The translations under genes were made by a program, and so were the position numbers. The notes under the pieces were generated by a model that was given only the letters and a program-made list of their open reading frames with translations, ran no database searches and had not been told where the DNA came from. Below, piece by piece: positions 45,225 through 59,100 of a stretch of DNA of 64,000 nt. This DNA comes from Spirochaetia bacterium (GTDB lineage Bacteria; Spirochaetota; Spirochaetia; WTKD01; G963693115). Every line of letters starts with the position of its first letter. Positions within the stretch are counted from its first letter, which is position 1. The stretch spans positions 258,251 to 322,250 of the forward strand of contig CBDDCA010000006.1 in assembly GCA_965226055.1 (NCBI GenBank), given 5' to 3'.

Positions 45225-46250
45225 TTACTCTTCCACTAATACAGGAGGTGGTGTTTGTTCTGAGTCTTGAAACATAGCTTCTTCATTTTCTTCAGGTTCT
45301 TGAGCAAAAAAGTGATCATCATCAACAAGGAAACGATCTTCTACTGTCGAGTTATTAAGAATAAATGCAACAGTATCGCGTCCTCCTTTTGTTTTTGCAT
45401 AATAGGTATCAGCAAAAAAGTATATATCTAATTCAAGAGCATCTCCTGATTTTTGAGTTACTTTTATACTGATACTTTTTGTTTCTTCTTGCAATGCTAC
45501 AGATGTAAGATCTTTCGCTTCTAAGAAAAACATATCTGTGAGATACTTTTCTGCAAGCACAGCATCAATCTTTTTATCAGAACCTACTAAACTCCATCCC
45601 TCATCGTTTCTTTCTAGTAGCATAGTACTTGACAACACTTTTGTCTTATCATCATATCGTTGTATTTGATACTGAGATACATTTTCTACAGCATTATTAC
45701 TAGGAAACAAACGAAGGTCTGCCCAATCCAGATAATCATACTGTAGGTAAGACACCATAGTATCATCTATTTGATATACAGAGGGACTATCATCAATTTG
45801 AGCAAAACTATTTGCTCCTGAAGCATCGCTCACTCGCAATGAAATCAGCTGGGATCCATCCTCTGCTGAAAGAACTAAGGAATACGCAGTATCGCCTAAC
45901 TGATACTGTGATACATCTTTTGGATCTTTCGATACGAGCCTTCCTTTTTTTACCTTTGCTACTGTATTGAGGAACGATTGCACTATATCTTGATTTACAG
46001 GATAATTTTTTACATCCACATCCTCTTCTTCTCTTGTGAGCGTCCATATATTGTTCAATTTTTTGAGAACAAATTTTTCGCTCGTACCAATTCCTTCTAC
46101 ATTAGCTATATCAACAGTACCAATAAGTGGCTGTGATACTTTTTTTCTCTGCTGTGATTGAGGCTTTGTTACTGTAGCTATGGTATACACTAGCACTAAT
46201 ATCACAAATATCACAGTGAGTATTACAATATTTTTTGTATTTTTAGTCAC
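45225..46250 (-). CDS. Secreted/anchored accessory protein of the GldG-type ABC system (DUF4340-like)
   Basis: An N-terminal TM anchor and an acidic C-terminal tail. It sits immediately downstream of the gldA/F/G-like genes. Confidence 0.5.
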   Translation of the reverse strand: MTKNTKNIVILTVIFVILVLVYTIATVTKPQSQQRKKVSQPLIGTVDIANVEGIGTSEKFVLKKLNNIWTLTREEEDVDVKNYPVNQDIVQSFLNTVAKVKKGRLVSKDPKDVSQYQLGDTAYSLVLSAEDGSQLISLRVSDASGANSFAQIDDSPSVYQIDDTMVSYLQYDYLDWADLRLFPSNNAVENVSQYQIQRYDDKTKVLSSTMLLERNDEGWSLVGSDKKIDAVLAEKYLTDMFFLEAKDLTSVALQEETKSISIKVTQKSGDALELDIYFFADTYYAKTKGGRDTVAFILNNSTVEDRFLVDDDHFFAQEPEENEEAMFQDSEQTPPPVLVEE

Positions 46251-46267
46251 AATTATTCTCCTTTATT

Positions 46268-48013
46268 TTAATATCGTCTCCGAGAAAGATTTCTTCTCAT
46301 AAAAAGTACTACTGCCCCAACAATAACTATAAGTAAAGGGACAAAAAAGTTATTGATCAACTGAACAACAAACATATACCCTTCTTTTTTTGCTTCGTCT
46401 TGAATCTTATTTAACTGAAGATTACGTACATTCTTTGACTTTATCTGTAATAACTCTACATCAGCACTTAACCATTCTGTTGAGTTAGATACAAAAGAAA
46501 TATTATACTGTGCATTAGAAAATTGATAGAGAGGACTTATAAAATAATGACTTCCCGCAGCAAGAAACCTTGCCTGTTCGGTACTTGATATATACTCTTC
46601 TATACTCTCCTCTGGGGTACTTATAATCCCTGCTTCTACTGCACTTGATAATGGGCCATTAAATACAGAGATAAGATTATATTGTTTTGTATTCTCTTCA
46701 TTTTTAGAAGTAAAAAATCCAGTGTTATCAGGAACTACATTAAAGCCGTTTCCTTGTGCATTAGGCCCTACTGTCCATCCATCTTCTGTAGTTTTCACTA
46801 TATTTGTTACATAGTCTGCAACATCATCGCGAACAACTATTGGGCTTGTCCAATACATATCCAAGCCTGCAAAACGGTTTGTAATAGGATGATCTAAGGC
46901 AACATTTTGCTGAGCAATGGTAGGCCACATTGGATAACTTTGAAAAATACTTACTCCTGCACCACCACTTAAAGGAATCTGCTTATTAAGAGAATCAAGT
47001 GCTATTTCATCTTTTATAGTAAGCCCATAACTCTCTATCATTTTATTAAGGACTGTGTCATTGGCTGTTGCAAATAAGCCTCTTTGTAAATCAACATTCG
47101 CTCTATCAACTGCAAAAAACACTCCTTTTCCTTGCATAACAAATTGGTCTATACGATATGCTAACTCATTGGACACATCCTGATTTCCTAAAATATACAA
47201 CACATCCACATCATCAGGAAACGGAGCATCATCTTTTTCTATTATTTTGACTTCAAAATCTTGCTCAAGTATTTGTTGTATCACTTGCCTATTCTGTTGA
47301 TCATCATAGTATGTATCAAGAAACAACACTCCAACAACACGTGCATCATCATTATATGTTTCTACTATTTTTGATACTACTTGATACTCAATAATGGATG
47401 GTTCTAATGTAAAAGGGATAACACTGTTTCGTTCTTGATAAGAAATAACAATGCCTGAATATACCACCGCAAAAGATGCCTCGTTCTTTTCAACAAACTG
47501 TATCTGTCTTGGTTCTAAGCCTTTTCCACGTAATTCTTCTTCGCTCAATGTTTCTGGATCAATCTCCTCTACAATAATACTCCCAGAACTCCGTGCTGCT
47601 ATTTCTTGTAATGTATCAAGAATTTGCTGTGTTCCTTGTGCTTGCAGTTTTAATTTAGGACTAATATAATAATCTATGTATACAATATCCTCAAGGTCTC
47701 TTAGTATATCAATGGTCACCTGAGAGATTGAATATACTTTATTTTCTGTAGTATCAATACGAAAGGGAAATACCAACGAGTTTATTAGCACTAACACGAT
47801 TACTGCAAAGAATACAATAGAAACAAACTGTTCCTTTGCTTTTTTCTGCCATATCCCCCCTCCCTTAGCTCCTTTCTTTACTTTCTTCTGAGATACAGTA
47901 GAACTTTCTCCTTGAGATGCTGTATCTTTCTGAGTATCATCCTGTTGTGCTGGCACAGATGATACATTTTTTATATCTTCATTTCTTTCATCATTACTCA
48001 TGTCTACCTCCAT
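46268..48013 (-). CDS. GldG-like ABC-transport auxiliary protein (ABC-type uncharacterized transport system)
   Basis: 581 aa with one N-terminal and one C-terminal TM segment flanking a large periplasmic region. The position after the ABC-2 permease resembles gldG. Confidence 0.65.
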   Translation of the reverse strand: MEVDMSNDERNEDIKNVSSVPAQQDDTQKDTASQGESSTVSQKKVKKGAKGGGIWQKKAKEQFVSIVFFAVIVLVLINSLVFPFRIDTTENKVYSISQVTIDILRDLEDIVYIDYYISPKLKLQAQGTQQILDTLQEIAARSSGSIIVEEIDPETLSEEELRGKGLEPRQIQFVEKNEASFAVVYSGIVISYQERNSVIPFTLEPSIIEYQVVSKIVETYNDDARVVGVLFLDTYYDDQQNRQVIQQILEQDFEVKIIEKDDAPFPDDVDVLYILGNQDVSNELAYRIDQFVMQGKGVFFAVDRANVDLQRGLFATANDTVLNKMIESYGLTIKDEIALDSLNKQIPLSGGAGVSIFQSYPMWPTIAQQNVALDHPITNRFAGLDMYWTSPIVVRDDVADYVTNIVKTTEDGWTVGPNAQGNGFNVVPDNTGFFTSKNEENTKQYNLISVFNGPLSSAVEAGIISTPEESIEEYISSTEQARFLAAGSHYFISPLYQFSNAQYNISFVSNSTEWLSADVELLQIKSKNVRNLQLNKIQDEAKKEGYMFVVQLINNFFVPLLIVIVGAVVLFMRRNLSRRRY

Positions 48014-48765
48014 TTTCTGTTAATAAGTACTTGTCTATTTAAAAATAAGAATAGAGCCGATACTGCAAGATAATATATAACATCTCTCGTATCAATAAGC
48101 CCTTTTACAAAACTGTCAAGATGTGTGGGCAAAGCAATATAGTCTATAAGCTGTGCTAAAAAACGTGGCAAGGCAGGCAAATTTGGAAGATATGCTATAA
48201 GGGTAAGCAAAAAAAGCACAAGTGCAGTTAAAAGGAAATTAGATATTTGATTTTTCGAAAGCGATGAGAGAAAACACCCAAGACTCACTTCGGTAGTAGT
48301 AAGCAGTATAATACCCAGATAGTTTGCAAAAAGTACGCCTAGCTCAAAATCACCAAACGGCAACAACGATAGCGTAAGAATAGTATTTATTACAATCATC
48401 ACAAGAAACAAGCTCAATGCCCCTAAAAACTTTCCTAACACTAACTGCCATTCAGTAAAAGGAAGGGTAAGTAGTAATTCATCTGAACCCGTTTTTTTCT
48501 CTTCTGACCATGTACGCATCGTTACCGCTGGTACTACTATAATAAAAAATATAGGAATAATACTAAAAATAGTGCGAAAATCTGCCCTATTTTGCACAAA
48601 AAATGCTTGAAATTGAAATGTCCATAAAGAGACAATCAATGTAAAAAAGAAAATAAGAATATATGCAATGGGAGAGCTAAAATATTGTTTTAACTCTTTT
48701 TTTACTAATATAAATGTCATGCTACTCTCCTGATTGTTTAGTAATTTTTTCAAAAATGGATTCAA
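48004..48765 (-). CDS. ABC-2 family permease (GldF-like)
   Basis: Six TM segments. The probable true start is the internal M (MTFILVKKEL..) at about 48720, abutting the ATPase stop. Confidence 0.7.
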   Translation of the reverse strand: MNPFLKKLLNNQESSMTFILVKKELKQYFSSPIAYILIFFFTLIVSLWTFQFQAFFVQNRADFRTIFSIIPIFFIIVVPAVTMRTWSEEKKTGSDELLLTLPFTEWQLVLGKFLGALSLFLVMIVINTILTLSLLPFGDFELGVLFANYLGIILLTTTEVSLGCFLSSLSKNQISNFLLTALVLFLLTLIAYLPNLPALPRFLAQLIDYIALPTHLDSFVKGLIDTRDVIYYLAVSALFLFLNRQVLINRKWR

Positions 48766-49663
48766 GGCTGGTACTTTTTTGACTTAATTCCCGTAATCGG
48801 ATACGCTCTTTACTTGCCCAATCAAAAAATATCTCACCTTTCATATACTCAGATAAACCAGTGATAATAACCTTCGTGGAATCATCTTTTTCTTCAACAA
48901 TGTCTACTTTATTCACTCCCTCAACATTTCCTAGAGAAAGCACTGTTTCTTTAGGAACATTGCCTACCAACTCTAAGGAAAATATATCTTCTCCTTTTAG
49001 CTGATGAGATATTTCCTCACTTGTTCCTTCTGCTACAATTTTTCCTTCATTTACAATAAGCACACGCTTACATAACACTTCAACTTCTTGTAGTATGTGA
49101 GTAGAGAGAATAACTGTTTTTGTTTCTCCTAGTTCTTGAATAACTTTCCGTATTTCTTTAATCTGATTTGGGTCTAGTCCTGATGTAGGTTCATCTAAAA
49201 TAACTACTGCAGGATCATGGATAATAGCCTGTGCAAGCCCTACCCTTTGCCTCATTCCTTTTGAAAGACTGGAAATAGGTTTGTACACAAAATCACTAAT
49301 ACCACAACGCTGTATTCCCTTATCTATTGCAGCACCTAAGTCTACCGAACTAATGCCTCTCGCTCTTCCAATAAACTGCAAGTACTCATACACGAGAAGA
49401 TCTTCGTACAGTGGAGTAGTTTCGGGCAAATATCCGACTTGCGATTTTGTAAAAACAGTGTCTTCCACCACACTTTTTCCTGCTATCTTTACTGTTCCAC
49501 TATGTGGATTATGATAGCCTGTTATCATTTTCATAATAGTAGTTTTTCCTGCCCCATTAGGACCAAGGAGACCCACTATTTCTCCTTCAGGTACAAAAAA
49601 ACTTACATCTCTTACTGCTGTAAATGTATCATACCTTTTTGTTACATTTTTTAATTCAATCAT
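48722..49663 (-). CDS. ABC transporter ATP-binding protein (GldA-like)
   Basis: Walker A GPNGAGKTT, LSKGMRQRVGLA, and Walker B ILDEPTSGLD. Confidence 0.85.
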   Translation of the reverse strand: MIELKNVTKRYDTFTAVRDVSFFVPEGEIVGLLGPNGAGKTTIMKMITGYHNPHSGTVKIAGKSVVEDTVFTKSQVGYLPETTPLYEDLLVYEYLQFIGRARGISSVDLGAAIDKGIQRCGISDFVYKPISSLSKGMRQRVGLAQAIIHDPAVVILDEPTSGLDPNQIKEIRKVIQELGETKTVILSTHILQEVEVLCKRVLIVNEGKIVAEGTSEEISHQLKGEDIFSLELVGNVPKETVLSLGNVEGVNKVDIVEEKDDSTKVIITGLSEYMKGEIFFDWASKERIRLRELSQKSTSLESIFEKITKQSGE

Positions 49664-49835
49664 ATGATAGAAATCCTCCTAGTCAATAGAGTTAATATTG
49701 TGTAATGATCAACTATTTATTTAAACTTTACTCCAGTATACAAATATACTAAACACTATGCAAGAGTTACGGGGAATAATTTTTGGGGAAATTAGAGGGT
49801 ACATTAGATAGTAGAACCATAAGTTTGTACTGTTT

Positions 49836-50699
49836 TTAATGAGAGATACTATTAACTTTTAAACTATCTTTGAAAAATAATATTTCTTTTCCATTCTTAG
49901 TTTTATTAGCAAAATGTTTTAGAATAAAAGGTTTTCTATTTTTTACCCAAGAAAAATTTTCATTTATTTCCTCTTTATCATCATAAGAAACAATCCAAGA
50001 AAATTTTTTAATATTTTTAATTTTTTCACTTAAGATTTTATGCTGATCTTGTTTATAAAAGTTTAAGTATAAATCTTTTCCTTTATTAAAATAGGGAGGA
50101 TCAAAATAAAATATTGTCTGCTTATTTTTTTCTTCTTTTTGAATTTTATCAATTAGTTCTAAAACATCTAGATTATGCAGAGTTATTTGTTCTTTATACC
50201 TTGCTATTAATTTGATTTTTTTTATTATTGTATCTTTATTGAATCTACAATTTAATTTATATTTTCCTTTTTGTTTTAAGCCTCCAATAGGACCTCCTTT
50301 TAAAATTCCTGAAAAATTTGCCCTATTTAAAAATAATGTAGAAAAGCCTACCTCTAATGATGAAAAATTTTGTATCTCTTTTTGTATTTCTTTTTGTTTT
50401 TTCCAATTTTCTATACTTATTTCTGTATCATGTATGAGTGTGCATAACTCATCAGTTTTATTCAAAACACAATACCAAAAAGAATAAATAGATTTGTCTA
50501 AATCATTTAAAGTTATTTTTTTAAATTTATTTTCTAATAAAAGATATAAACCAACTGAAGCTCCTCCACAAAAAGGCTCTACATAATGATCATTTATTTT
50601 ATTATCAGTGCAAATTTGAGAAATAAATTTTGAAAGCCTATTCTTTCCTCCTGGATATCTTAATGGTGAATAAAATTTATTTTTAATCATTTTTACCAT
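49836..50699 (-). CDS. Dam-family (D12, alpha-class) N6-adenine DNA methyltransferase
   Basis: 'YPGGKNRL' , then motif I 'EPFCGGASV', then 'NDLDKSIY', then motif IV 'FYFDPPYF'. The gene is very AT-rich compared with its neighbours. Confidence 0.8.
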   Translation of the reverse strand: MVKMIKNKFYSPLRYPGGKNRLSKFISQICTDNKINDHYVEPFCGGASVGLYLLLENKFKKITLNDLDKSIYSFWYCVLNKTDELCTLIHDTEISIENWKKQKEIQKEIQNFSSLEVGFSTLFLNRANFSGILKGGPIGGLKQKGKYKLNCRFNKDTIIKKIKLIARYKEQITLHNLDVLELIDKIQKEEKNKQTIFYFDPPYFNKGKDLYLNFYKQDQHKILSEKIKNIKKFSWIVSYDDKEEINENFSWVKNRKPFILKHFANKTKNGKEILFFKDSLKVNSISH

Positions 50700-51969
50700 A
50701 GTAATGCTTTAATATTTTCCCTACAATTTTAGAACACTGTAAAATATTTGTTTTATCATATTCAATATTTGCGTGAGCATATTTTGCTAATAACGATTCA
50801 AAATCAGAATTTTTTTTCAAAATGTCTGTGCCAATACTATTGAAATTTAATTCTTTTTGATCTAACATATCAGATGCTTTAATTTCTTTCATAAATTCTC
50901 CAAAAACAGCATCATCACTTGCTCGTTTATCTCCCTCATTTTCAAAATATTTTCTTCCAGCAGCCTCCATTATTAGTCTCAAAGACATACCTATAATAGG
51001 TAAGATATTTTTATCTCTTTTAAATGTTTCATAAATTTCATCTAGTATACTATACAAATCATTAACTTTTCCTTTTTTTAGTTCTAATTTTTCTCCAAAT
51101 AAAGTATCTACGATTGCTTTATCTCTAGGAGTTTTTCTTAGTTTTTTTTGTAAATTATTATCTTTTATCACATTCTTGCTACTCTGTTCTGTAAAATTTC
51201 TAATATTTAATTCTTTATCATCAATTAAAGGTTTTATTGATCCTCTATTTTTTCTTGTACTTATTTGTTTACTTTGAATCAATTGTATTAATTTTTCAAA
51301 AATTAATTGTAATTTTTCATCCTTTTCATATGAAGGATAAACACTCTCTAATTTATTATTTGAATCAAAATAAAAACCTAATTTGTAAAAATTATCTACA
51401 GTCAAAATTTCTGTTTTAATAAAATTTTGATCTAGTGCTTTATAATTCTCACTTATTAAATGTGTTGCTTCTTCAATTTTTAAAAATAAACTTTTTTCCT
51501 TTTTCAAATGATAATGATCAAAATAATCTTGTTGTAAAGCAGACCAAGTATTATTTCTTATATTATCTGCTTGTATAATTGTTAATGCTGTTTTCTCATT
51601 ACATAAAACACAAGAAATTTCTTTTAAGTTTACTAAATTTTTTGGTGGACTAGATGGAAATAATTTTTTTTCTATTACAACAGACCATTGTGGATTTTGT
51701 AAATATTTTAATACTACTATTCTTTTATTACCATCATAAACAATATGTTTTTTATTTTTAAAAACAACAATTGGTAATTTATTAAGATGATAGAAATCTC
51801 CCATTTCTTCAATTAGCTTTGGAATATTCCATTTATCTCTATCATCCTTTATGGCTTTTTTTATTATTTCTAAATCTCCAATATCTTCTCCAATTGGATC
51901 TCTTGGATTTTCAGTCCATAAATGTAATTCCGATATTTTTATCTCTTTGATTTTTTGATCATCACCCAT
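50683..51969 (-). CDS. ParB/Srx-like (DUF262-like) nuclease-domain protein, 428 aa. Its gene overlaps the start of the Dam-family MTase gene
   Basis: N-terminal 'ISELHLWTENPRDP ... LPIVVFKNKKHIVYDGNKRIVVLKYL' fits the ParB N-terminal/DUF262 pattern (NPR...DG.xR). I recognise no domain in the C-terminal half. Confidence 0.6.
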   Translation of the reverse strand: MGDDQKIKEIKISELHLWTENPRDPIGEDIGDLEIIKKAIKDDRDKWNIPKLIEEMGDFYHLNKLPIVVFKNKKHIVYDGNKRIVVLKYLQNPQWSVVIEKKLFPSSPPKNLVNLKEISCVLCNEKTALTIIQADNIRNNTWSALQQDYFDHYHLKKEKSLFLKIEEATHLISENYKALDQNFIKTEILTVDNFYKLGFYFDSNNKLESVYPSYEKDEKLQLIFEKLIQLIQSKQISTRKNRGSIKPLIDDKELNIRNFTEQSSKNVIKDNNLQKKLRKTPRDKAIVDTLFGEKLELKKGKVNDLYSILDEIYETFKRDKNILPIIGMSLRLIMEAAGRKYFENEGDKRASDDAVFGEFMKEIKASDMLDQKELNFNSIGTDILKKNSDFESLLAKYAHANIEYDKTNILQCSKIVGKILKHYYGKND

Positions 51970-52016
51970 ATATTTAATTCCTCCACCTCTCTTGCTTAAT
52001 CTACTTAATAAGTATA

Positions 52017-52958
52017 CTAATCTTTCAATGGAATTGTAAACACTTGCCTTTCTCTACAACATACGAGTGAGTCGAATATATTTTTTGCTTCTTTTTCAAT
52101 TTCTCCAATATCATTTAATGTATAACGAGGGCTAAAATGCAATAATGCAGCTTGGGTAACACCTCCACTTTCTTTCACCATTTGTGCAGCTTCCACCCCT
52201 GTTAAGTGTAATTTTTCTTTTGCTGCCTCCAAGTGTTCTTGCTTAAACATTCCTTCAATAAACACTAAGTCTGAACCTGCCATTTCTTGCACAATATCGG
52301 GCGTTGGACGTGTATCGGTAACATATACAATTTTTCTTCCGCTCCGTGAAGCCCCTAATACTTGATGAGGATAGTATGTTTTTTCGTCAATGGTAATTGT
52401 TTCTCCTCGCTGTAATGTTGCCCAGTGGGGACCTCGCGGTATGTTCAGCTGCACTGCCTTTTCTACATCAAATCGGCCTGGCCTCTCATGTTCAATAAAA
52501 GAAAAACCCCATACTTTACGGGTATGTTTTCCGAGAAATGTTTTGATATGAAATTCATTTTTTTTGTGACAATATACTACAGACTGATTATCCAGTTCTT
52601 CTAAAATAACATACTCTATATCAAAGTTAATGTACATACCAAGACTACGCCTTGTAGCTTCAATAAACTCTCTCACTGCTGCAGGACATACAATAGTAAG
52701 AGGAATATCACGCCCTACCTGTGAAGAGAGCATCAACAGACCAGGCAATCCCGTAACATGATCAGCATGAGAATGACTAATACATACTACATTGATTTTT
52801 TTCCAGCTTACAGAAGCCTTACGTAAACTCAACTGCAAGCCTTCACCACAATCAAACAATATCTCATCAGATCCACGTCTCAGCAATACAGACGACAAAT
52901 GCCTTCGAGGAAGAGGCAGAGACCCACTTGTTCCCATTACAATAGCTTCGAGAATCAT
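52017..52958 (-). CDS. rnz: Ribonuclease Z (tRNA 3' endonuclease, MBL fold)
   Basis: 'CISHSHADHVTGLPGLL' is the HxHxDH motif, with an N-terminal 'MGTSGSLP' and a length of ~310 aa. Confidence 0.85.
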   Translation of the reverse strand: MILEAIVMGTSGSLPLPRRHLSSVLLRRGSDEILFDCGEGLQLSLRKASVSWKKINVVCISHSHADHVTGLPGLLMLSSQVGRDIPLTIVCPAAVREFIEATRRSLGMYINFDIEYVILEELDNQSVVYCHKKNEFHIKTFLGKHTRKVWGFSFIEHERPGRFDVEKAVQLNIPRGPHWATLQRGETITIDEKTYYPHQVLGASRSGRKIVYVTDTRPTPDIVQEMAGSDLVFIEGMFKQEHLEAAKEKLHLTGVEAAQMVKESGGVTQAALLHFSPRYTLNDIGEIEKEAKNIFDSLVCCRERQVFTIPLKD

Positions 52959-52974
52959 ATATATGTAACTATGA

Positions 52975-54195
52975 CTATACTTCTACTTCTTTTGAATAGT
53001 CTACAGAGTCCCACATAAAACCATGAATAGTATAAAATTCCTTGCGAAATCCATGTATGTCTGTTTTTTCTTCAAGGTTAGTTTCATCTATTTGATTCCA
53101 AATATCCGCTACTTTCTTCTGAATATCGTCTCGCATTTCCCAATCATCCATACGAATACGCTGATGTTCATCAGTACGAATACCTACATTAGTCGCATGC
53201 TCACTTCCGTATATTCTTTCACTAAAGAGTCTCCCCATTTGTTCTATGCATCCTTCATGAATGCCTTCTTCTTTCATCACCTTATATAATATAGCAAGAT
53301 ACAAGGGAACGACAGGAATGACACTACTAGCTCGCGTTACTAACGCTTTATTTACCGAAACATATGCTCGACCGAGTCCTGCTGACTGCATTGCAGTATC
53401 AAGCTCATGTGCAGTAGCTTCTAAATCTTCTTTTGCTTTGCCTATTGTTCCGCTTCTATATAGCTCCTTTGTTAGTTCAGGACCGATATATGAAAACGCA
53501 ATATTGAAGGAATTTTCAGCCAATACCCCAGCTTTCATCAATGCCTCTGTCCATAGCTTCCAATCTTCTCCTCCCATCACTTTCACAGTGTGAGCAATCT
53601 CTTCCTCACTTGCAGGAGCAACATCAATATCATATAAAGAAGAATCAACTATATTGATTGACTTTCCTACAAAATTGTTTCCTATCGGTTTTAATACCGA
53701 ATTATATACTTCCCCTGTAGTAGGATCAATACGCTTTGGTGAAGCAAGGCTATAAATAACAAGATCTATCTTTCCCATTTCTTGCTGTATTACATCAATA
53801 CACTGCTGTTTTATTTCATTACTAAATGCGTCACCATAAATGGAGTTACACCAGAGCCCTGCTTGTTTTGCTTCCGCTTCAAAGGCATGCGTGTTATACC
53901 AGCCTACAGTAGCAGTTCGCTTTTTTGCAGGATTAGCAGGAGCTTCAAAGGCAACACTCAGTGTCTTTGCTCCATATCCAAATGCAGCAACAATACGCGA
54001 GGCTAAGCCATATCCTGCAGATCCTCCAAGAATCAGTACATTTTTCGGAGCATTACTGCTCTTATCTTGAATACTTTGTATGTGTTTTTTGACATACTCA
54101 ATTTGTGATTGCACTAATTTTGTACACCCAGTTGGATGTGCATTTATACAGACATTTTTCATTATTTTTGGTGATACTATCATACTTTCTGCCAT
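52975..54195 (-). CDS. fabV: Trans-2-enoyl-CoA/ACP reductase (FabV/Ter family)
   Basis: 'CINAHPTGC', 'GGSAGYGLASRI' and ~400 aa match the Ter/FabV pattern. The true start may be the internal M (MIVSPKIM) a few codons in. Confidence 0.8.
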   Translation of the reverse strand: MAESMIVSPKIMKNVCINAHPTGCTKLVQSQIEYVKKHIQSIQDKSSNAPKNVLILGGSAGYGLASRIVAAFGYGAKTLSVAFEAPANPAKKRTATVGWYNTHAFEAEAKQAGLWCNSIYGDAFSNEIKQQCIDVIQQEMGKIDLVIYSLASPKRIDPTTGEVYNSVLKPIGNNFVGKSINIVDSSLYDIDVAPASEEEIAHTVKVMGGEDWKLWTEALMKAGVLAENSFNIAFSYIGPELTKELYRSGTIGKAKEDLEATAHELDTAMQSAGLGRAYVSVNKALVTRASSVIPVVPLYLAILYKVMKEEGIHEGCIEQMGRLFSERIYGSEHATNVGIRTDEHQRIRMDDWEMRDDIQKKVADIWNQIDETNLEEKTDIHGFRKEFYTIHGFMWDSVDYSKEVEV

Positions 54196-54283
54196 ACTTA
54201 CTCCTATTGATTAAAATATATTACATGGTATTTTACATTATATTAAAACAATGGTATTGTTGCAGTAACTTATTATTGGGGAT

Positions 54284-54324
54284 CACGAGTTCAAGGATTA
54301 AATGCGACAAAGGAGCAAAAAAAG
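54284..54324 (+). repeat. Solo IS30-family left-end copy heading the second duplicated cassette
   Basis: The 58 bp from 54281 are identical to 54781-54838, the left end of the intact IS. Confidence 0.6.
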
Positions 54325-54473
54325 TAAGAAAAATAAAACAAAGCATATTTTTATTAGCTACTACATATAGTGTATATTTAGTATATAATTTTCAATTTAA
54401 GCACTAGAGAAATTTGCTTTATTTTTATATTAATGTTATACTAAATGCAGAATAATAAGAGAACAATAACATT

Positions 54474-54731
54474 ATGAGTGTACAAGTAAAAACTGATACA
54501 AAAGAAACTACTTTAATTTTAAATAATACCGATAAGGAAAATTTGGAAAGATGTTTCTCGGAATGGAAATTCAAAGATTATCAAAGTCTTATGAGGTTCG
54601 TATCATCTATTTTAATTGAGAGCGAAGATAAAATAACAATAGGCATTAAGAAAAGTGGAGTGCTAAAAGAATTTTCACCAGCAGACCATTTAGTAAACGA
54701 TGTCAGAACCTCAGAACAACCAAAAAAGTAG
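54474..54731 (+). CDS. Small hypothetical protein (85 aa), paralog of 27048-27281 with a divergent C-terminal tail
   Basis: Identical over the first ~72 residues apart from one substitution (A5V), then '..HLVNDVRTSEQPKK' where the other copy reads '..HLLKDS'. Confidence 0.45.
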   Translation: MSVQVKTDTKETTLILNNTDKENLERCFSEWKFKDYQSLMRFVSSILIESEDKITIGIKKSGVLKEFSPADHLVNDVRTSEQPKK

Positions 54732-54785
54732 TGATAATTATATCACCGATCAACAGTTAAAGGAATTTAATTATGTCACCGATCA

Positions 54786-55864
54786 CGAGTTCAAGGATTA
54801 AATGCGACAAAGGAGCAAAAAAAGTAAGAAAAAATAAAAAAAGGAGACACTCTATAATTGTATAAACGAAACAAATTAGGAGGTCTCCTTTATGAGTATA
54901 CCAAAAAACTCATTTCGTCATCTGACAGAGAAAGATCGTACTATTATCGCTACGCTCCGTCATGCAAAGTACAGTGTCAATGCTATAGCCAAACGCCTCA
55001 GTGTCCATCGCAGCACTGTCTATCGTGAAATACAACGCAATGGGGGCAAACGTGTCTATAATGAAGTCATTGCTCACAGACGGGCAAGAAAACGATGGGA
55101 ACAGAGTCATACAAAACACTCTGTTCTTTCTCATACTATTCGTACCTATATCGTTTTTCACCTTATTTTCGATGGCTGGTCGCCCGAACAAATAGCAGGA
55201 AGGCTCAGTATTGATATGCCTCAGTATGCTATCAGTCATGAGACGATATATCACTTTATTTACCGTTTCGCTCCTCATTTGACACAGTATCTGCGAAAAC
55301 AGCACCAAACACGCAAAAAAAGAACCATATCTCACTCTTTTTCTGTTTCTCGTATCCCTCATCGTGTCTCAGTACACGAACGAGGCGATGTTTCTAATGA
55401 ATATGGCCACTGGGAAGTAGATCTTGTTGGCTCTTCTTCAAAAGCTACTGTGCTTGCTTTAGTGGAAAAACATACCCGTTATGTTCTTTTTCATAAGATA
55501 CCTGACAAAACTGCTCATACCGTACAGTATGGCATGCTCTTTGCTCTAAGGAACATACCACGCCATTTATGTAACAGTTTCACTTATGATAATGGGAGTG
55601 AATTTATGCTCCATACTGAAATAAATACACGCTTGAATGCTCGTTCTTATTTTTGTACTCCTTACTGTGCTTGGGAAAAAGGATTAGTCGAACATTCTAT
55701 TGGATTATTACGTCAGTACTTTCCTAAGAAGACTTTGTTTCATAGAGTCAAGCAAAGTGATATACTACAAGTACAAACGCTTATCAATCATAGACCACGA
55801 AAATGTCTTCATTTTTTGACCCCTGCTGAAGCCTTTTCTGTCGCATTTAGTCCTTGAATCCGCA
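54786..55864 (+). mobile_element. Intact IS30-family insertion sequence (~1.08 kb) with terminal inverted repeats of ~23-25 bp
   Basis: IRL 'cgagttcaaggattaaatgcgaca' (54787-54810). The reverse complement of the right end (55839-55863) reads 'gcggattcaaggactaaatgcgaca'. A single transposase ORF is present and its stop lies inside the IRR. Confidence 0.8.
54892..55857 (+). CDS. IS30-family DDE transposase
   Basis: An N-terminal HTH ('..NAIAKRLSVHRSTVYREIQRNGG', cf. IS30 '..RSTISRELKRN') and a C-terminal DDE region (HWEVDLV ... YDNGSEF ... CLHF). An RBS 'aggagg' lies 8 nt upstream. Confidence 0.85.
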   Translation: MSIPKNSFRHLTEKDRTIIATLRHAKYSVNAIAKRLSVHRSTVYREIQRNGGKRVYNEVIAHRRARKRWEQSHTKHSVLSHTIRTYIVFHLIFDGWSPEQIAGRLSIDMPQYAISHETIYHFIYRFAPHLTQYLRKQHQTRKKRTISHSFSVSRIPHRVSVHERGDVSNEYGHWEVDLVGSSSKATVLALVEKHTRYVLFHKIPDKTAHTVQYGMLFALRNIPRHLCNSFTYDNGSEFMLHTEINTRLNARSYFCTPYCAWEKGLVEHSIGLLRQYFPKKTLFHRVKQSDILQVQTLINHRPRKCLHFLTPAEAFSVAFSP

Positions 55865-56190: not shown

Positions 56191-59100
56191 GTGCTAGCAA
56201 TGACTACCCTCGTACTTGTAGGATGTGCAGAGAGTAGCAACAATTCCTCATCAGGCGGAGGGGGAAAACAGGTAACCCCGACACTCGCATCAGTGTCCAA
56301 TGTGCAGATACAAGCAGCAAGCAACGATGGGACGCTCTCGTTACGCTGGCAAGCTCCCAGCGAAGCCACGCATGTAGTAGTAAAAGCTACATCAACTGCG
56401 CCAGCACAATCTATACAGGTGCGTGTTCCTGCAATAGAATATCGTGCATTGTTTCAACAAAACAGACCCTACACCCTCAGAGGCTTGCATGCCACTACCG
56501 ATTATACAGTAGAGATAGAAGCACAAAAATCAGACTCAGAAGTATCACCAAAAACAACACGCTCTGTGACAACACTGATCGATGAAACTGCACCACAGGA
56601 CACTTTTACACGGGTAGCAGTAGAGAAAGCACAAAACGATAGTATAAAGCTAACATGGGACAAAGCACTGCTATCGTCAGGCAAGACAGACATAGCCGAA
56701 GCCACAATACAGGTGATAGAAAGAACTACTAATGTAAGGGCAGAAGTATCAGTACAAGATGTAACACAAGGAGAGGTGAGCATTGCTGTCCCCACTATAG
56801 ACGGCATAAGCTATGATATAGTAGTAGTATACAAAGATAGCAACGGTAACGAAAGCACAGCAAAGCAAGCACTCAGAGGCATAGTGCCATCAGCACTCTC
56901 ACAAACAGTAACGCCACTTTCCGCATCAGACCTTACAGTAACAGCAAACGATAAAAGCAATAGCCCAGCCGATGAAAGCCTGCTTATTATGTGGGATGAT
57001 AAAGATGACAGCTTTGACTTTTCAAACAAAAGCCTCCAAGTACGCGTTATAGCAACCGCAACAAATACAGTAGTAGCAGAGGAGACAATAGACAAAGATA
57101 CAAGTGCAACAAATGTCAGCGGAGCAAGTGCAGACAACCAAGAGTACGCCACTGTGTATGTAGCAAAAGATGGCATAGCACTCACAAAACTCTATGGCAC
57201 GCTTACCTACAAAGTAGAAGTGTATGTTTCTCAAAACGGAAAGTACTCCACTGCAGTGTCAAAAGAACAAGCAACAACAGACAAAAGCACAGAGCCTGTA
57301 AGCAATGTAAGTGCCGTAGGAGGAGCAACAAGCATAGTAGTAGGCTGGCAAGCCCCCGATGTACGAGATTATGCAGGAGTGACTATAACAGTAACAGAAA
57401 AGGACAGCACAACAGCAGCAAAGACAGTGACAATAACAGAGAGAACAGTACGCAACACACAGATAACAGACCTCAAAGCAACCACCGAGTATACAGTGGC
57501 AGTCGTATCAATGGACAGTGCAGGCAACAAAGGAACAGAAGCAACAGCCACAGTCAGCACATCAGCAGATAGCACCGCCCCCGATGCAGTAACAAGCATA
57601 CAAGCAAGCTATCCTTTTGTATCAGCAGCAAAGATAGGCACACAGATAACATGGACAGCACCCGATGCAGCAAAAGCAAAGAACAAAGACATAAAAGAAT
57701 ACAGCGTAAGCATAGCAGAAAAAGGCACAAGCACCACAGTACTGAGCGAGAAGAAAATACCCTATCCCACAAAGTCACTCTCTGTAGAAGAACTTGTGCA
57801 AGGCAAAACATATACCATAACAATACTCACGCTTGATTACTCAGAAAACAAAAGTAGCCAAGCCACAAAAGACATAACAACCCCCAACTCACTCACAGCT
57901 CCCTCAGAAGATCTCTTTCAAAGCAAGCCTACCCTTGACAAAACAGGAGCTATACAGATAAAAGCAACTTTTAAGAATGCTCCAAGCATAGGACGATACT
58001 ACACCTTGCGTATGAAAGAGGGAGCTACCTTAATAGCAGAAAAAAGCATAACAAACACAGCAATCACCATTAGCTTTGGGATAGCAGATGGCTTAGAAGT
58101 ACCTAAGAGCCAAGCAAATGCCAAGAATTATCGCTTTGATTTTCTGCAAATAGCAAATAACAGAGTAAGTCCAGTAACCGCACTGAGTGATGCAGTAGCA
58201 GTATACGATAGCACCTCGACAGCACCGCCCGCTCCCAAAGATGCAAAGCTCTCCGTAGAGTCAGTAACCCAAACAACTGCAAAAGCAGTCTATACATTTA
58301 GTGCAGGAGACATTACTGATACCAACAAAGCACCCAGCGGAAGCAAACTCACACAGGCACAAATACAATACAAAGTATACATAGCAGCAGGAGACCACAG
58401 CACAAAAACACTAGACGAAATAAAAGCCCTTGCAGGAGTACAAACAAGAGAGCTAGCAGGAAACAGCACTCCATTAAAAGCAACATTTATAGGAACGAAA
58501 GGAGCAGACTATACCGCAGGGGTAGAAGCAATAAACAGCCTCAATCCATCATATAGTACAGGAGCATCAGTAACAATAAAGAAAGCAACACTTACTGCTC
58601 CCCCAAGCACACCAAAAGTAACAACCTACACTAACAGTAATGCAGTGGTATTTGCAGTGCCTACCACAGGAAGTAACAGCGGGAAAAAAGTCATAACAGT
58701 ACAACTCAATGCCTCAGACATAGCAGGAGTGAGCAAGGCAAATGGCAATGCCCTTGAAGCGACAGACCTTGCCTACTATGTGCTATACCTCAAGAAAGAA
58801 GATAGCACAGGAAAGCCTGCCAGCGTATCAGCACTATGGGCAACAGAAAAGAGCAGTACAAGAGTGGCAAAATACACAAAAGCAACAGGAACAACTCAAG
58901 ACACAATATCCATAGCAATAGTAGACAGCACCAGTGGAAGCAATGCAGGAGCCACACCCATAGAAACAGCAAAAGACTACTACATAGGAGTAAGGATAGT
59001 CAACACAACATCCCCCAATTACGATGCAACAAATAGCGACAAGCTCTTTCCTGCAGGCTTTTACACCGATGTAACAGAAATAAAGGAAATCTATACTTCC

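What the first reader, a model, noticed from the sequence alone, without database searches (positions are those of the whole stretch)
49836..51969. AT-rich islet: a ParB/DUF262-like nuclease-domain protein translationally coupled to a Dam-family m6A methyltransferase. A candidate uncharacterised defence, R-M-like or addiction module
The 428-aa protein has a ParB N-terminal/DUF262-type motif ('NPRDP...VYDGNKRIV'). I cannot assign any family to its C-terminal ~280 aa. The ParB-like gene's 3' end overlaps the start of a complete alpha-class Dam-like MTase gene (YPGGK / EPFCGGASV / DPPYF) by 17 nt.

The pair is markedly more AT-rich than the flanking fabV/rnz and ABC genes (judged by eye; not computed). 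It is wedged between two conserved operons, which suggests horizontal acquisition.

ParB/DUF262 domains are the NTPase or nicking modules of GmrSD, Dnd, Ssp and BREX-associated proteins. An MTase paired with such a protein, without a classical PD-(D/E)xK, HNH or PLD nuclease, does not correspond to a named R-M type.
Basis: partly seen in the sequence, partly recalled or inferred. Interest (0 to 1): 0.8.

Follow-up and report, generated by a model that had tools for sequence, protein, structure and literature searches.

The report
ParB/HEPN plus methylase defence cassette
This is a horizontally acquired two-gene cassette (a ParB-like/HEPN protein plus an adenine DNA methylase) that is a divergent member of PD-λ-5, an anti-phage system already named and experimentally validated, so it is a real defence module but not a new kind of system.

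Summary
Two intact, overlapping minus-strand genes (428 aa, 50683..51969; 287 aa, 49836..50699) form the lowest-GC stretch of the window (GC 0.23 vs 0.35; GC3 0.11-0.12 vs 0.23-0.33).

The pair matches a named system. PADLOC assigns the methylase to PD-Lambda-5_B (E=1.6e-110). The 428-aa protein hits only PD-Lambda-5_A models (15 models, best E=1.6e-10). An AlphaFold model (pLDDT 85) resolves the unassigned C-terminus as a HEPN fold. Residues 1-250 resemble ParB/Noc/KorB: the N-domain plus the central DNA-binding domain. Vassallo et al. 2022 describe PD-λ-5 as "ParB/HEPN, methyltransferase".

The gene linkage held in all 83 related loci, from bacteria, CPR, DPANN archaea and a few viral contigs. 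A sister genome with ~97% identical flanks carries a Cas12-like gene plus CRISPR array at the same site. The site is therefore a defence hotspot.

Two features are unusual. The family lacks the canonical HEPN Rx4-6H motif. The window protein and its two nearest relatives have lost a near-invariant R-x-H in the ParB-like domain.

The mechanism is inferred, not shown: methylation marks self, the ParB-like module senses unmarked DNA, and HEPN and/or ParB nuclease activity executes.

Verdict: new member of a known kind; moderate-low interest.

The parts
49789..51984 (.). Strain-specific cassette (2,196 bp): the only part of this region with no counterpart in a sister genome whose flanks are ~97% identical
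   Evidence: blastn of the window against L081: window 54283..51985 = L081 6676..8975 (96.7% identity) and window 49788..45895 = L081 13049..16941 (97.0%). L081 holds 4,073 bp of unrelated cargo in between. No flanking direct or inverted repeat longer than 7-9 nt.
50683..51969 (-). Gene A: 428-aa ParB-like/HEPN protein (PD-λ-5_A type)
   Evidence: ORF. Hits 15 PADLOC PD-Lambda-5_A models, best E=1.6e-10, and two models align through residue ~280. No Pfam or NCBIfam hit. More than 300 full-length homologues at 37-48% identity. AF2 model has mean pLDDT 85.2.
51670..51969 (-). Residues 1-100: ParB/sulfiredoxin-fold N-domain with ENPRDP (51895..51912) and DGNKR (51721..51735)
51220..51669 (-). Residues 101-250: strand-helix continuation of the ParB N-domain plus a helical central domain. 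Contains C120/C123 (51601..51612). At 51562..51573 it reads 'QADN' where the family has 'ERKH'.
   Evidence: Foldseek alignments to ParB-CDP (6sdk), Noc and M. xanthus ParB span ~240-260 columns. R134 and H136 are each conserved in 82 of 84 sequences, but the window has A134 and N136.
51085..51219 (-). Residues 251-295: Lys-rich, length-variable linker
   Evidence: pLDDT is below 50 for residues 272-285. This is the region with large indels in the family alignment.
50686..51084 (-). Residues 296-428: HEPN-fold domain with invariant R331 (MSLRL, 50974..50988) and H399 (KYAHAN, 50767..50784). It has no canonical Rx4-6H motif.
49836..50699 (-). Gene B: 287-aa alpha-class D12 N6-adenine DNA methyltransferase (PD-λ-5_B type). 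Motif I EPFCGGASV at 50553..50579; motif IV DPPYF at 50088..50102.
   Evidence: PADLOC PD-Lambda-5_B PDLC04018 E=1.6e-110, full length. PF02086 E=4e-18, above the gathering score. TIGR00571 (dam) is below its cut-off. The only PDB relative is 7m6b_B, E=7e-12.
50683..50699 (-). A/B overlap (17 nt, or 8 nt if B starts at ATG 50690): translational coupling
   Evidence: Sequence. In 62 of 83 related loci B follows A on the same strand, mostly overlapping (estimated -32..+47 nt).
51980..51984 (-). GGAGG Shine-Dalgarno sequence for gene A, 10 nt upstream of the ATG. It lies in the first bases of the cassette.
   Evidence: Read from the sequence. The cassette boundary is at 51984/51985.
52011..52040 (-). 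Promoter-like site TTTACA-18-TATACT in the conserved flank at the end of rnz. It could drive whatever cargo sits in the hotspot (weak evidence).
   Evidence: Consensus scan, 10 of 12 matches. The number of sites in the region is not above shuffled expectation (21 vs 20.4), and no terminator-like sites were found. The sequence is shared with the sister genome.

Best explanation
The region is a divergent two-gene PD-λ-5-type anti-phage cassette. It was acquired horizontally from a lower-GC donor and inserted into a defence-cargo hotspot between rnz and a GldA-like ABC transporter operon.

What is shown:
- Gene B is a D12-class N6-adenine DNA methyltransferase.
- Gene A is a three-part protein: a ParB/sulfiredoxin-fold N-domain with the ENPR and DGN(R/K)R motifs, a ParB-like central helical domain, and, after a flexible linker, a C-terminal HEPN fold.
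- The genes are intact and coupled.
- The A-B linkage is universal in the related loci examined.
- The PD-λ-5 family is a proven defence system (literature).

Proposed working (inferred):
1. B methylates a short motif throughout the host chromosome and so marks self.
2. A dimerises through its HEPN domain. That domain occupies the position of the ParB C-terminal dimerisation domain.
3. A uses its ParB-like NTP- and DNA-binding module to engage DNA that lacks the mark.
4. Engagement switches on an effector. This is RNA cleavage by the HEPN domain (abortive or growth-arrest arm), DNA nicking by the ParB/Srx domain (restriction arm), or both. This is the 'compact RM+Abi' logic proposed for PD-λ-5.

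Not shown: methylation-dependent discrimination, the nature of the effector chemistry, and the recognition motif.
For: Family assignment:
- B matches PD-Lambda-5_B at E=1.6e-110. A hits 15 PD-Lambda-5_A models and no other PADLOC family.
- A canonical relative of A (L015) hits 22 PD-Lambda-5_A models, up to E=1.4e-15, over residues 7-368.
- The best structural match among viral proteins is the N-half of a canonical PD-λ-5_A in the P2-like Vibrio phage ValB1MD-2 (E=3e-6).
- The family profile aligns to that protein over positions 11-174 and shares LKLWxENPR, GNRRI and the R-H of 'ERKH'.

Architecture:
- Foldseek top 27 PDB hits are all ParB/Noc/KorB/Srx, over ~250 columns.
- Vassallo et al. label PD-λ-5 'ParB/HEPN, methyltransferase'.

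Linkage:
- A B-type methylase is adjacent to A in 83 of 83 loci across very diverse taxa.

Defence context:
- The sister genome has a Cas12-like gene plus an 8-repeat CRISPR array at the identical site.
- The nearest relative P0002 sits inside a type I R-M island.

Function of the family:
- It had to be cloned in a strain deleted for mrr. From established knowledge that Mrr restricts N6-methyladenine DNA, this implies an active methylase.

Foreign origin:
- GC 0.23 vs 0.35 and GC3 0.11-0.12 vs 0.23-0.33.
- A and B are singletons in the 15-billion-protein collection, whereas their neighbours have 90%-identity partners in the sister genome.
Against: - The match of A to the PD-Lambda-5_A profiles is weak (E=1e-10 to 1e-3) and does not reach the HEPN part.
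- C-terminal similarity to a canonical PD-λ-5_A is only a shared motif register (N303, R331, E/D335, H399). It has no statistical support (BLAST E~5; hhalign probability <1%).
- The family lacks the canonical HEPN Rx4-6H catalytic motif, so RNase activity is not assured.
- The window protein departs from 19 of 96 conserved columns. It has lost R134 and H136, each conserved in 82/84. Its ParB-like module may therefore work differently or be impaired.
- No sequence-level link to bona fide ParB could be shown.
- No mechanistic study of PD-λ-5 was found in the searched literature.
- Nothing here tests expression or activity in this host.
Confidence: 0.75

Rival explanations
1. A minimal type II-like restriction-modification pair. 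The ParB/Srx-fold domain of A is the only nuclease and nicks or cuts unmethylated DNA. The HEPN-fold domain is non-catalytic and serves only for dimerisation or regulation.
For: - No Rx4-6H motif anywhere in the family.
- The HEPN domain sits where ParB has its dimerisation domain.
- ParB/Srx proteins with DNA-nicking activity are documented (cited in PMC12839542).
- The methylase is strictly linked to A.
Against: - R331, E/D335, H399 and S413 are invariant or nearly so in the HEPN domain. That argues for a functional site rather than a mere scaffold.
- PD-λ-5 protected more strongly against T-even phages, whose DNA is heavily modified, than against the λvir used to select it. This is not typical of simple sequence-specific restriction (inference).
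- The window protein has lost the R-x-H of the ParB-like module but keeps every HEPN invariant.
Confidence: 0.2
2. A PrrC-like guard. The HEPN RNase of A is held inactive by contact with the methylase (or by methylated DNA). It is released when a phage anti-restriction or anti-methylase factor, or DNA damage, disturbs that complex. In this model discrimination does not rest on reading unmethylated phage DNA.
For: - This model was proposed for R-M-linked HEPN proteins in general (PMC3710099).
- Three-gene variants carry an OLD/ABC-type ATPase of the kind used as phage sensors.
- The same methylase subfamily is paired with such ATPases alone in prophages.
Against: - The two-gene system has no separate restriction enzyme to guard.
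- In 13 of 83 loci B is convergent rather than co-translated with A, so tight stoichiometric co-assembly is not universal.
- There are no data on an A-B interaction.
Confidence: 0.15
3. The copy in this genome is functionally impaired or decaying: a remnant of a PD-λ-5-type cassette whose sensor module is no longer active.
For: - The window protein differs from consensus at 19 of 96 conserved columns (E133Q, R134A, K135D, H136N, R147Q, R82K).
- There is no room for a dedicated promoter inside the cassette.
Against: - Both ORFs are intact and still coupled, with a strong GGAGG before A.
- All other invariants are kept.
- The two nearest relatives (P0002 and P0003, ~48% identical) share the loss of ERKH yet remain full length. 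P0002 and another close relative, P0004, keep the adjacent methylase, and P0002 lies in an R-M island. This pattern fits a viable sub-lineage, not decay.
Confidence: 0.12
4. This is not a defence system: a ParB-type DNA-binding regulator or partition remnant next to an orphan regulatory adenine methylase.
For: Residues 1-250 resemble ParB, Noc and KorB, which are DNA-binding CTP switches used in segregation and transcription control.
Against: - No ParA partner, and a HEPN C-terminus.
- Exclusive hits to defence-system profiles.
- Universal linkage to one methylase subfamily.
- Located at a site that carries CRISPR-Cas in the sister genome, and inside an R-M island in a relative.
- The family is experimentally validated as anti-phage.
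Confidence: 0.03

Closest known systems
PD-λ-5 (Vassallo et al. 2022, E. coli ECOR7; PADLOC/DefenseFinder 'PD-Lambda-5')
   Same: - Two genes: a ParB/HEPN protein followed by a D12 adenine methylase.
- B matches the PD-Lambda-5_B profile over its full length (E=1.6e-110). A matches only PD-Lambda-5_A profiles.
- Shared motifs with a canonical phage-borne PD-λ-5_A: LWxENPR, GNRRI, and the N...R...H register in the C-terminal domain.
- Mobile, and located in a hotspot.
   Different: - A belongs to a distant sub-family. Profile E-values are only ~1e-10, there is no BLAST-level similarity to phage or plasmid records, and it is shorter (428 aa against PADLOC models of up to ~590-610 positions).
- The cassette is chromosomal and carries no prophage genes.
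- The host is an uncultured, probably spirochaete-like bacterium rather than an enterobacterium.
- The window allele lacks the R-x-H that even the canonical protein keeps.
R-M-linked HEPN proteins and ParB-HEPN fusions (Anantharaman et al. 2013: Saro_3948-type ParB-HEPN; MAE_28990 'in operon with ParB nuclease and DNA methylase')
   Same: HEPN fused to, or encoded next to, a ParB-fold domain and a DNA methylase. P0002's pair is embedded in a type I R-M locus, exactly as that paper describes.
   Different: I could not test which of the 2013 HEPN clades this domain belongs to. Those clades are listed as 'mostly active' (Rx4-6H present), whereas this family lacks the motif.
PrrC / EcoprrI (HEPN anticodon nuclease guarding a type I R-M system)
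   Same: Combination of DNA modification-based immunity with a latent HEPN effector. This is the conceptual model for 'RM+Abi'.
   Different: PrrC is a separate ABC-ATPase-HEPN protein regulated by a complete type Ic R-M enzyme. Here there is no HsdR/S and no ATPase in the two-gene form, and the HEPN is fused to a ParB-like module.
CTP-switch ParB family (ParB/Spo0J, Noc, KorB, PadC)
   Same: These are the best structural matches for residues 1-250. The order of elements is the same: strand, NPxxPR-like loop, helices, strand-strand-G(E/N)RR, helix, strand, helix (one search compared with the 6sdk_A sequence).
   Different: - No detectable sequence-profile similarity.
- No ParA or parS context.
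- The C-terminal dimerisation domain is replaced by HEPN.
- Nucleotide binding and clamp behaviour are untested.
GmrSD / DUF262-containing type IV restriction enzymes, DndB, BrxU
   Same: These use a ParB/Srx-superfamily N-domain (DGQQR-type motif) in a defence protein.
   Different: - No DUF262 or DUF1524/HNH Pfam hit and no PADLOC GmrSD/BrxU/Dnd hit.
- These enzymes attack modified DNA and have no cognate methylase, whereas here the methylase is obligatory.

Membership tests
PD-λ-5 defence system | Component B: D12-class adenine methylase recognised by the PD-Lambda-5_B profile | tested here: met
   PDLC04018 E=1.6e-110, residues 8-285 against profile positions 3-278 of 291. This is better than any generic MTase_II model. 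PF02086 is above its gathering score.
PD-λ-5 defence system | Component A recognised by PD-Lambda-5_A profiles | tested here: met
   15 PD-Lambda-5_A models and nothing else. Best E=1.6e-10. PDLC03998 and PDLC04000 align residues 6-280. The match is weak and excludes the C-terminal domain. A canonical-motif relative (L015) scores up to E=1.4e-15 over residues 7-368.
PD-λ-5 defence system | Component A architecture: ParB-like N-terminus plus HEPN C-terminus | tested here: met
PD-λ-5 defence system | A and B adjacent in one operon | tested here: met
   17-nt (or 8-nt) overlap on the same strand. Adjacent in 83 of 83 related loci.
PD-λ-5 defence system | Protects cells against phage infection | not testable with these tools
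   Shown only for the E. coli ECOR7 system.
HEPN superfamily | Four-helix up-down HEPN fold | tested here: met
HEPN superfamily | Catalytic Rx4-6H motif (present in active RNase members) | tested here: not met
   Absent in the window protein. Found only as 3 unaligned chance matches among 43 family members. R331 and H399 are invariant but 68 residues apart.
ParB/sulfiredoxin superfamily | ParB/Srx fold of the N-domain | tested here: met
ParB/sulfiredoxin superfamily | Recognition by sequence models (Pfam ParBc PF02195 / DUF262 PF03235) or profile similarity to a solved ParB | tested here: not met
   No Pfam family at E<=1. The family profile against PDB sequences gives no ParB hit. hhalign against B. 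subtilis ParB (sequence verified as 6sdk_A) gives probability 0.6%. That test used a single-sequence template and so was weak.
Chromosome/plasmid partition ParB | ParA partner gene, C-terminal dimerisation domain, partition context | tested here: not met
   The neighbours are RNase Z and an ABC transporter. The C-terminus is HEPN. The conserved partner is a methylase.
D12-class (alpha) N6-adenine DNA methyltransferase | PF02086 match with motif I (FxGxG) N-terminal to motif IV (DPPY) | tested here: met
   PF02086 scores 66.5 bits against a cut-off of 22. EPFCGGASV is at residues 41-49 and DPPYF at residues 200-204.
Dam orthologue (GATC-specific) | Reaches the TIGR00571 cut-off, or is close to solved Dam enzymes | tested here: not met
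   59 bits against a cut-off of 114.85. The only PDB match is 7m6b_B at E=7e-12. Specificity is unknown.
Classical type II restriction-modification | A dedicated PD-(D/E)xK, HNH, GIY-YIG or PLD endonuclease partner | tested here: not met
   The cassette holds only A and B. A has no such domain by Pfam, PADLOC or fold search.
GmrSD-type (DUF262 + DUF1524/HNH) type IV restriction | DUF262 N-domain plus HNH C-domain, and no cognate methylase | tested here: not met
   No Pfam or PADLOC hit to these families. The C-terminus is HEPN. The methylase is obligatory.

The most novel reading that the evidence does not exclude
Protein A would be a ParB-type nucleotide-gated DNA clamp recruited to immunity.

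The proposed arrangement:
- The HEPN domain replaces the ParB C-terminal dimerisation domain and closes one end of a dimer.
- The ENPR / DGNRR / ERKH pocket (the counterpart of ParB boxes I-III) binds CTP or another NTP and gates the other end.
- Loading happens only at recognition sites that methylase B has not marked.
- Loading or spreading on foreign DNA then licenses a non-canonical R331/H399 HEPN nuclease.

In the window's sub-lineage the box-III-like R-x-H is lost (E133Q, R134A, H136N). This could give a hydrolysis-deficient, long-lived 'on' state. If correct, it would be the first ParB-like CTP switch acting as a methylation-sensitive immune sensor, and it would explain PD-λ-5.
Probability: 0.15. 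Interest if true: 0.75.

Novelty: new member of a known kind. Interest (0 to 1): 0.3.

Why it matters
The finding itself is an instance of a system discovered in 2022, with its architecture predicted in 2013, so it does not open a new category. Its value is as material for a system whose mechanism is still unknown.

- **A large, previously unnamed sub-family.** PD-λ-5_A has a sub-family with no Pfam coverage: 1,269 50%-identity clusters at E<=1e-3. It spans Bacteroidota, Proteobacteria, Actinobacteria, Spirochaetota, CPR bacteria and DPANN archaea. Every one of the 83 loci examined has the methylase.
- **A testable model.** The fold analysis suggests that the sensor half is a ParB/Noc/KorB-like NTP switch, and that the effector half is a HEPN fold without Rx4-6H but with an invariant Arg/His pair.
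- **Natural variants for dissecting the system:**
  - alleles lacking the R-x-H;
  - a split A gene in a P2-like phage;
  - a three-gene form with an OLD/ABC-type ATPase (verified in L015; inferred from gap size in six more loci);
  - methylase plus ATPase only.
- **A defence hotspot.** The rnz|ABC junction of this uncultured lineage exchanges PD-λ-5 for a compact Cas12-type CRISPR locus between ~97%-identical genomes.

Tried and rejected
- **Pfam and NCBIfam on protein A:** no hit at E<=1. The 'DUF262' label could not be confirmed.
- **tblastn of A against 50,697 phage and 72,556 plasmid records:** no match. No direct BLAST link to a published PD-λ-5_A was found. The link came later through structure and PADLOC.
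- **Family profile against PDB sequences:** only a spurious ClpC hit, E=0.39.
- **hhalign of the family against B. subtilis ParB and against the ValB1MD-2 C-half:** probabilities below 1%. Single-sequence templates are too weak, so the box I-III mapping stays an inference. No bona fide ParB gene exists in the DNA already fetched from which to build a profile.
- **Search for target-site duplications or inverted repeats at the cassette ends:** nothing longer than 7-9 nt. The insertion mechanism is unknown. The IS30-like gene about 3 kb away is not adjacent to the cassette.
- **Promoter and terminator scan:** not above chance.
- **AFDB50 fold search:** library unavailable.
- **Rejected readings:** partition ParB, GmrSD-type type IV enzyme, Dam orthologue, classical type II R-M (see the membership table).
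Full report
**1. Observation**

They overlap by 17 nt. A second in-frame ATG at 50690 (Met4) fits better with where homologues start to align (query residues 5-11). That start would give an 8-nt ATGATTAA overlap. Either way the genes are translationally coupled.

All quoted motifs are present.

- GC is 0.231 against 0.351 for the rest of the window.
- This is the minimum among all 2,134-bp windows (mean 0.346, sd 0.033).
- GC3 is 0.110 and 0.122 against 0.23-0.33 in nine other genes.

The flanking genes are RNase Z (above NCBIfam equivalog cut-offs), FabV and a GldA-like ABC ATPase. All run in the same direction as the pair.

**2. What the two proteins are**

*Methylase (B).*
- It matches Pfam PF02086 (D12 class).
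- It matches PADLOC's PD-Lambda-5_B model over its full length at E=1.6e-110, better than any generic type II methylase model.
- It is not a Dam orthologue. TIGR00571 scores 59 bits against a cut-off of 114.85.
- Its only solved relative is 7m6b_B at E=7e-12.
- Its specificity is therefore unknown.

*428-aa protein (A).*
- It has no Pfam or NCBIfam match, even at E<=1.
- It hits 15 PADLOC models, all of them PD-Lambda-5_A. The best is E=1.6e-10, and two models align through residue ~280.

*Structure of A.*
- An AlphaFold2 model built on 43 homologues has mean pLDDT 85.2. Low confidence is confined to residues 272-285 and 377-387.
  - ParB/sulfiredoxin-fold proteins: PadC 7.4, KorB 7.3, pNOB8 ParB-N 7.1, sulfiredoxin 6.8.
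- Foldseek's top 27 PDB hits are all ParB, Noc, KorB or sulfiredoxin. The alignments span about 240-260 columns.

So residues 1-250 look like the ParB N-domain plus its central DNA-binding domain. A Lys-rich linker follows, and residues ~296-428 are a HEPN fold.

**3. It is a named system**

- The supplementary table of Vassallo et al. 2022 describes PD-λ-5 (E. coli ECOR7) as 'ParB/HEPN, methyltransferase'.
- It protected more strongly against T-even phages than against λvir.
- It had to be cloned in a strain deleted for mrr.
- Anantharaman et al. [quoted passage not shown] They proposed a PrrC-like logic for R-M-linked HEPN domains.
- Later papers only repeat the RM/Abi idea. I found no mechanistic study.

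**4. A direct reference**

- The best structural match among viral proteins is an uncharacterised 252-aa protein of the P2-like Vibrio phage ValB1MD-2 (E=3e-6).
- Next to the integrase in that phage, three coupled genes encode proteins of 252 aa, 265 aa and a methylase.
- PADLOC shows that the first two are the two halves of one PD-Lambda-5_A model: positions 4-238 at E=4e-109, and positions 250-502 at E=1.7e-69. The third is PD-Lambda-5_B at E=2.3e-118.
- The window's methylase is 43% identical to that methylase.
- The window family's profile aligns to the phage N-half over positions 11-174. It shares LKLWxENPR and GNRRI, and it has 'LQRH' where the family has 'ERKH'.
- In the C-half, MAFFT places N303, R331, E/D335 and H399 in register with 'KLNSLF...ITLRVFLD...SYMHG'. 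This has no statistical support on its own (BLAST E~5; hhalign <1%).

**5. The family and its linkage**

- A has more than 300 full-length homologues at 37-48% identity in the word-indexed search. None has a Pfam domain, and nearly all are 'hypothetical'.
- A profile search of 1.84 billion cluster representatives finds 1,269 at E<=1e-3 and 153 at E<=1e-30.
- Eighty genomic loci and three viral contigs were examined. They come from Flavobacteriia, Bacteroidales, Alpha-, Beta- and Gammaproteobacteria, Coriobacteriia, Spirochaetota, Fibrobacteria, many CPR/Patescibacteria, and Nano-, Pace- and Woesearchaeota.
- A B-type methylase lies next to A in 83 of 83 loci:
  - 62 directly downstream on the same strand, mostly overlapping;
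  - 13 convergent;
  - 7 with a ~1.4-1.8 kb insert between A and B;
  - 1 with B upstream.
- In L015 the insert is a 524-aa AAA_15/AAA_21 ATPase of the OLD/PtuA/GajA/AriA kind, coupled on both sides. For the other six loci only the gap size is known.
- The same methylase subfamily occurs in temperate phages next to the integrase, paired with such an ATPase alone: Citrobacter phiNP and Streptococcus Javan645.

**6. Conserved residues and what is unusual in the window allele**

- Invariant or nearly so across 84 sequences: W18, E20-N21-P22-R23, D79-G80-N81, R83, C120, C123, R134, H136, W142, R239, F291, Y306, R331, H399 and S413.
- The canonical HEPN Rx4-6H motif is absent from the family. If the HEPN domain is catalytic, it uses a non-canonical R331/H399 constellation. 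I could not measure their distance in the model.
- The window protein departs from 19 of 96 conserved columns. The changes include E133Q, R134A, K135D, H136N, R147Q and R82K.
- Its two nearest relatives (P0002, P0003) share the loss of ERKH.
- P0002 still has the methylase immediately downstream and sits inside a type I R-M island: HsdM, HsdS fragments, an AAA_15 ATPase, then A, B, HsdR. Another close relative, P0004, also keeps the adjacent methylase.
- This looks like a viable sub-lineage rather than decay, but an impaired sensor cannot be excluded.
- By order of secondary-structure elements (compared with the 6sdk_A sequence verified), ENPR, DGNRR and ERKH sit where ParB has boxes I, II (GERRxR) and III (ENLQRE). 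This mapping is my inference. The sequence-profile test was uninformative.

**7. Acquisition and context**

- A and B are singletons in the 15-billion-protein collection. RNase Z, FabV and the ABC ATPase each have a partner at 90% identity or more on a 2.36-Mb contig from another sample.
- That sister genome is ~97% identical on both sides (window 54283..51985 and 49788..45895).
- Between these points the window has 2,196 bp (49789..51984), which is exactly A+B with 15 and 47 bp of flank. The sister genome has 4,073 unrelated bp.
- The sister genome's cargo is:
  - a 782-aa protein with Cas12f1-like TNB and IS605 OrfB HTH hits;
  - eight copies of a 36-nt repeat at 66-nt spacing, i.e. a CRISPR array;
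  - a DUF4468 gene.
- A third genome (FabV 83% identical) has neither cargo, and its synteny differs after rnz.
- The junction is therefore a cargo-swapping defence hotspot. This independently supports a defence role.
- No repeats mark the cassette ends.
- The GGAGG for A lies in the first bases of the cassette.
- A promoter-like TTTACA-18-TATACT lies in the conserved flank, but the scan is not above chance.
- The host is an uncultured lineage. FabV's named relatives, at only 55-57% identity, are mostly Spirochaetota MAGs. This placement is weak.

**8. Mechanism**

*Shown:* the domain folds, the motif conservation, the gene coupling, the universal A-B linkage, the foreign composition, the hotspot location, and (from the literature) anti-phage activity of the family.

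*Inferred:*
1. B marks self DNA with m6A. The need for a Δmrr host in E. coli fits an active methylase, given that Mrr restricts N6-methyladenine DNA (established knowledge).
2. A's ParB-like module engages unmarked DNA, possibly in an NTP-dependent way.
3. The HEPN domain dimerises the protein and acts as an RNase effector, and/or the ParB/Srx domain nicks DNA.

*Rivals:*
- a pure R-M pair with a non-catalytic HEPN;
- a PrrC-like guard;
- an impaired allele;
- a non-defence ParB regulator with an orphan methylase (least likely).

**9. Verdict**

It is wrong on novelty, because this is PD-λ-5, a divergent and previously unprofiled sub-family of it.

- Novelty: new member of a known kind.
- Interest: about 0.3. 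The value lies in the natural variants and in the ParB-switch/HEPN model they suggest for a system that is still mechanistically unexplained.

Noticed in passing
L081 9088-12125 (sister genome ena:ERZ25071788 ctg26443_14x_c; same site as window 49789-51984): At the identical rnz|ABC junction the sister genome carries a compact type V-like CRISPR locus. It has a 782-aa protein with only weak Cas12f1-like TNB (E=4.5e-6) and IS605 OrfB HTH (E=5.5e-4) hits. An array of 8 copies of a 36-nt repeat (TTTGTAGGGAGTGTTATTTTTGACCCTAACTACAAG), spaced 66 nt start to start, follows at ~11624-12125. No cas1 or cas2 lies within the 4-kb cargo. This may be an unclassified small Cas12 variant.
   Followed up: partly
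L015 7308-8882 (Phocoenobacter atlanticus); also L011, L017, L032, L042, L049, L064: Three-gene variant of the system. In L015 a 524-aa AAA_15/AAA_21 ATPase (best PADLOC hits ATPase-Toprim_I-B, PtuA, GajA, AriA) is inserted between A and B and is translationally coupled to both. In the other six loci only the 1.4-1.8 kb gap was seen, so the insert was not identified there.
   Followed up: partly
L083 2131-4819 (Citrobacter phage phiNP) and L084 2193-4846 (Streptococcus phage Javan645): The same methylase subfamily (43-48% identical to B) sits next to the integrase of temperate phages. There it is paired with a 579-595-aa OLD/ABC-type ATPase and no ParB/HEPN protein. This is a possible sister 'methylase + ATPase' defence module. 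In the phiNP record the methylase ORF is not annotated at all.
   Followed up: partly
L092 2446-4885 (Vibrio phage ValB1MD-2, Peduoviridae): A canonical PD-λ-5 in a P2-like phage is annotated only as two hypothetical proteins plus 'DNA adenine methylase'. PD-λ-5_A is split into 252-aa (ParB half) and 265-aa (HEPN half) ORFs that overlap by 4 nt (ATGA). This is either a natural split or a frameshift.
   Followed up: partly
L089 1-11179 (contig holding P0002, the closest relative of protein A): The A-B pair is embedded in a type I R-M island interrupted by an IS1595 transposase. The order is HsdM, RhuM, three HsdS fragments, a 303-aa AAA_15/21 ATPase, a 226-aa unknown, then A, B, a 23S_rRNA_IVP protein and a split HsdR.
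   Followed up: no
window 54283-55857: Synteny with the sister genome ends at 54283, just upstream of fabV. The window then has an 85-aa ORF (54474..54731, +) and an IS30-like transposase ORF (54892..55857, +, 321 aa). This is a second strain-specific insertion about 2.3 kb from the cassette. The 'IS30-like' label rests on my reading of the translation. It was not tested.
   Followed up: no
window 56191-60906 (+): A 1,571-aa Thr/Ser/Ala-rich putative surface protein. Its C-terminal region has tandem 'FNQ(D/N)IGxW(D/N)(T/I)' repeats (BspA/DUF285-like by eye). The coding strand shows very strong AT skew (0.3-0.56) and higher GC (0.43-0.47) than the rest of the window.
   Followed up: no
window 51562-51573 (residues 133-136 of protein A): The window allele reads QADN where 82 of 84 family members, and the canonical phage PD-λ-5_A, keep an Arg/Lys-His pair (ERKH / LQRH). 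Only the window protein and its two nearest relatives (P0002, P0003) lack it. The functional consequence is unknown.
   Followed up: partly
L014, L020, L023-L029, L033-L039 and others (A homologues that align only to query residues 5-338): In many CPR, DPANN and Bacteroidota loci the last ~90 residues of A diverge too far for tblastn, although the gene continues for a similar length. In the aligned variants (P0089, P0100, P0118) the His is kept within a different motif (TGAHQYS / AGAHSYI). The HEPN half therefore evolves much faster than the ParB half.
   Followed up: partly
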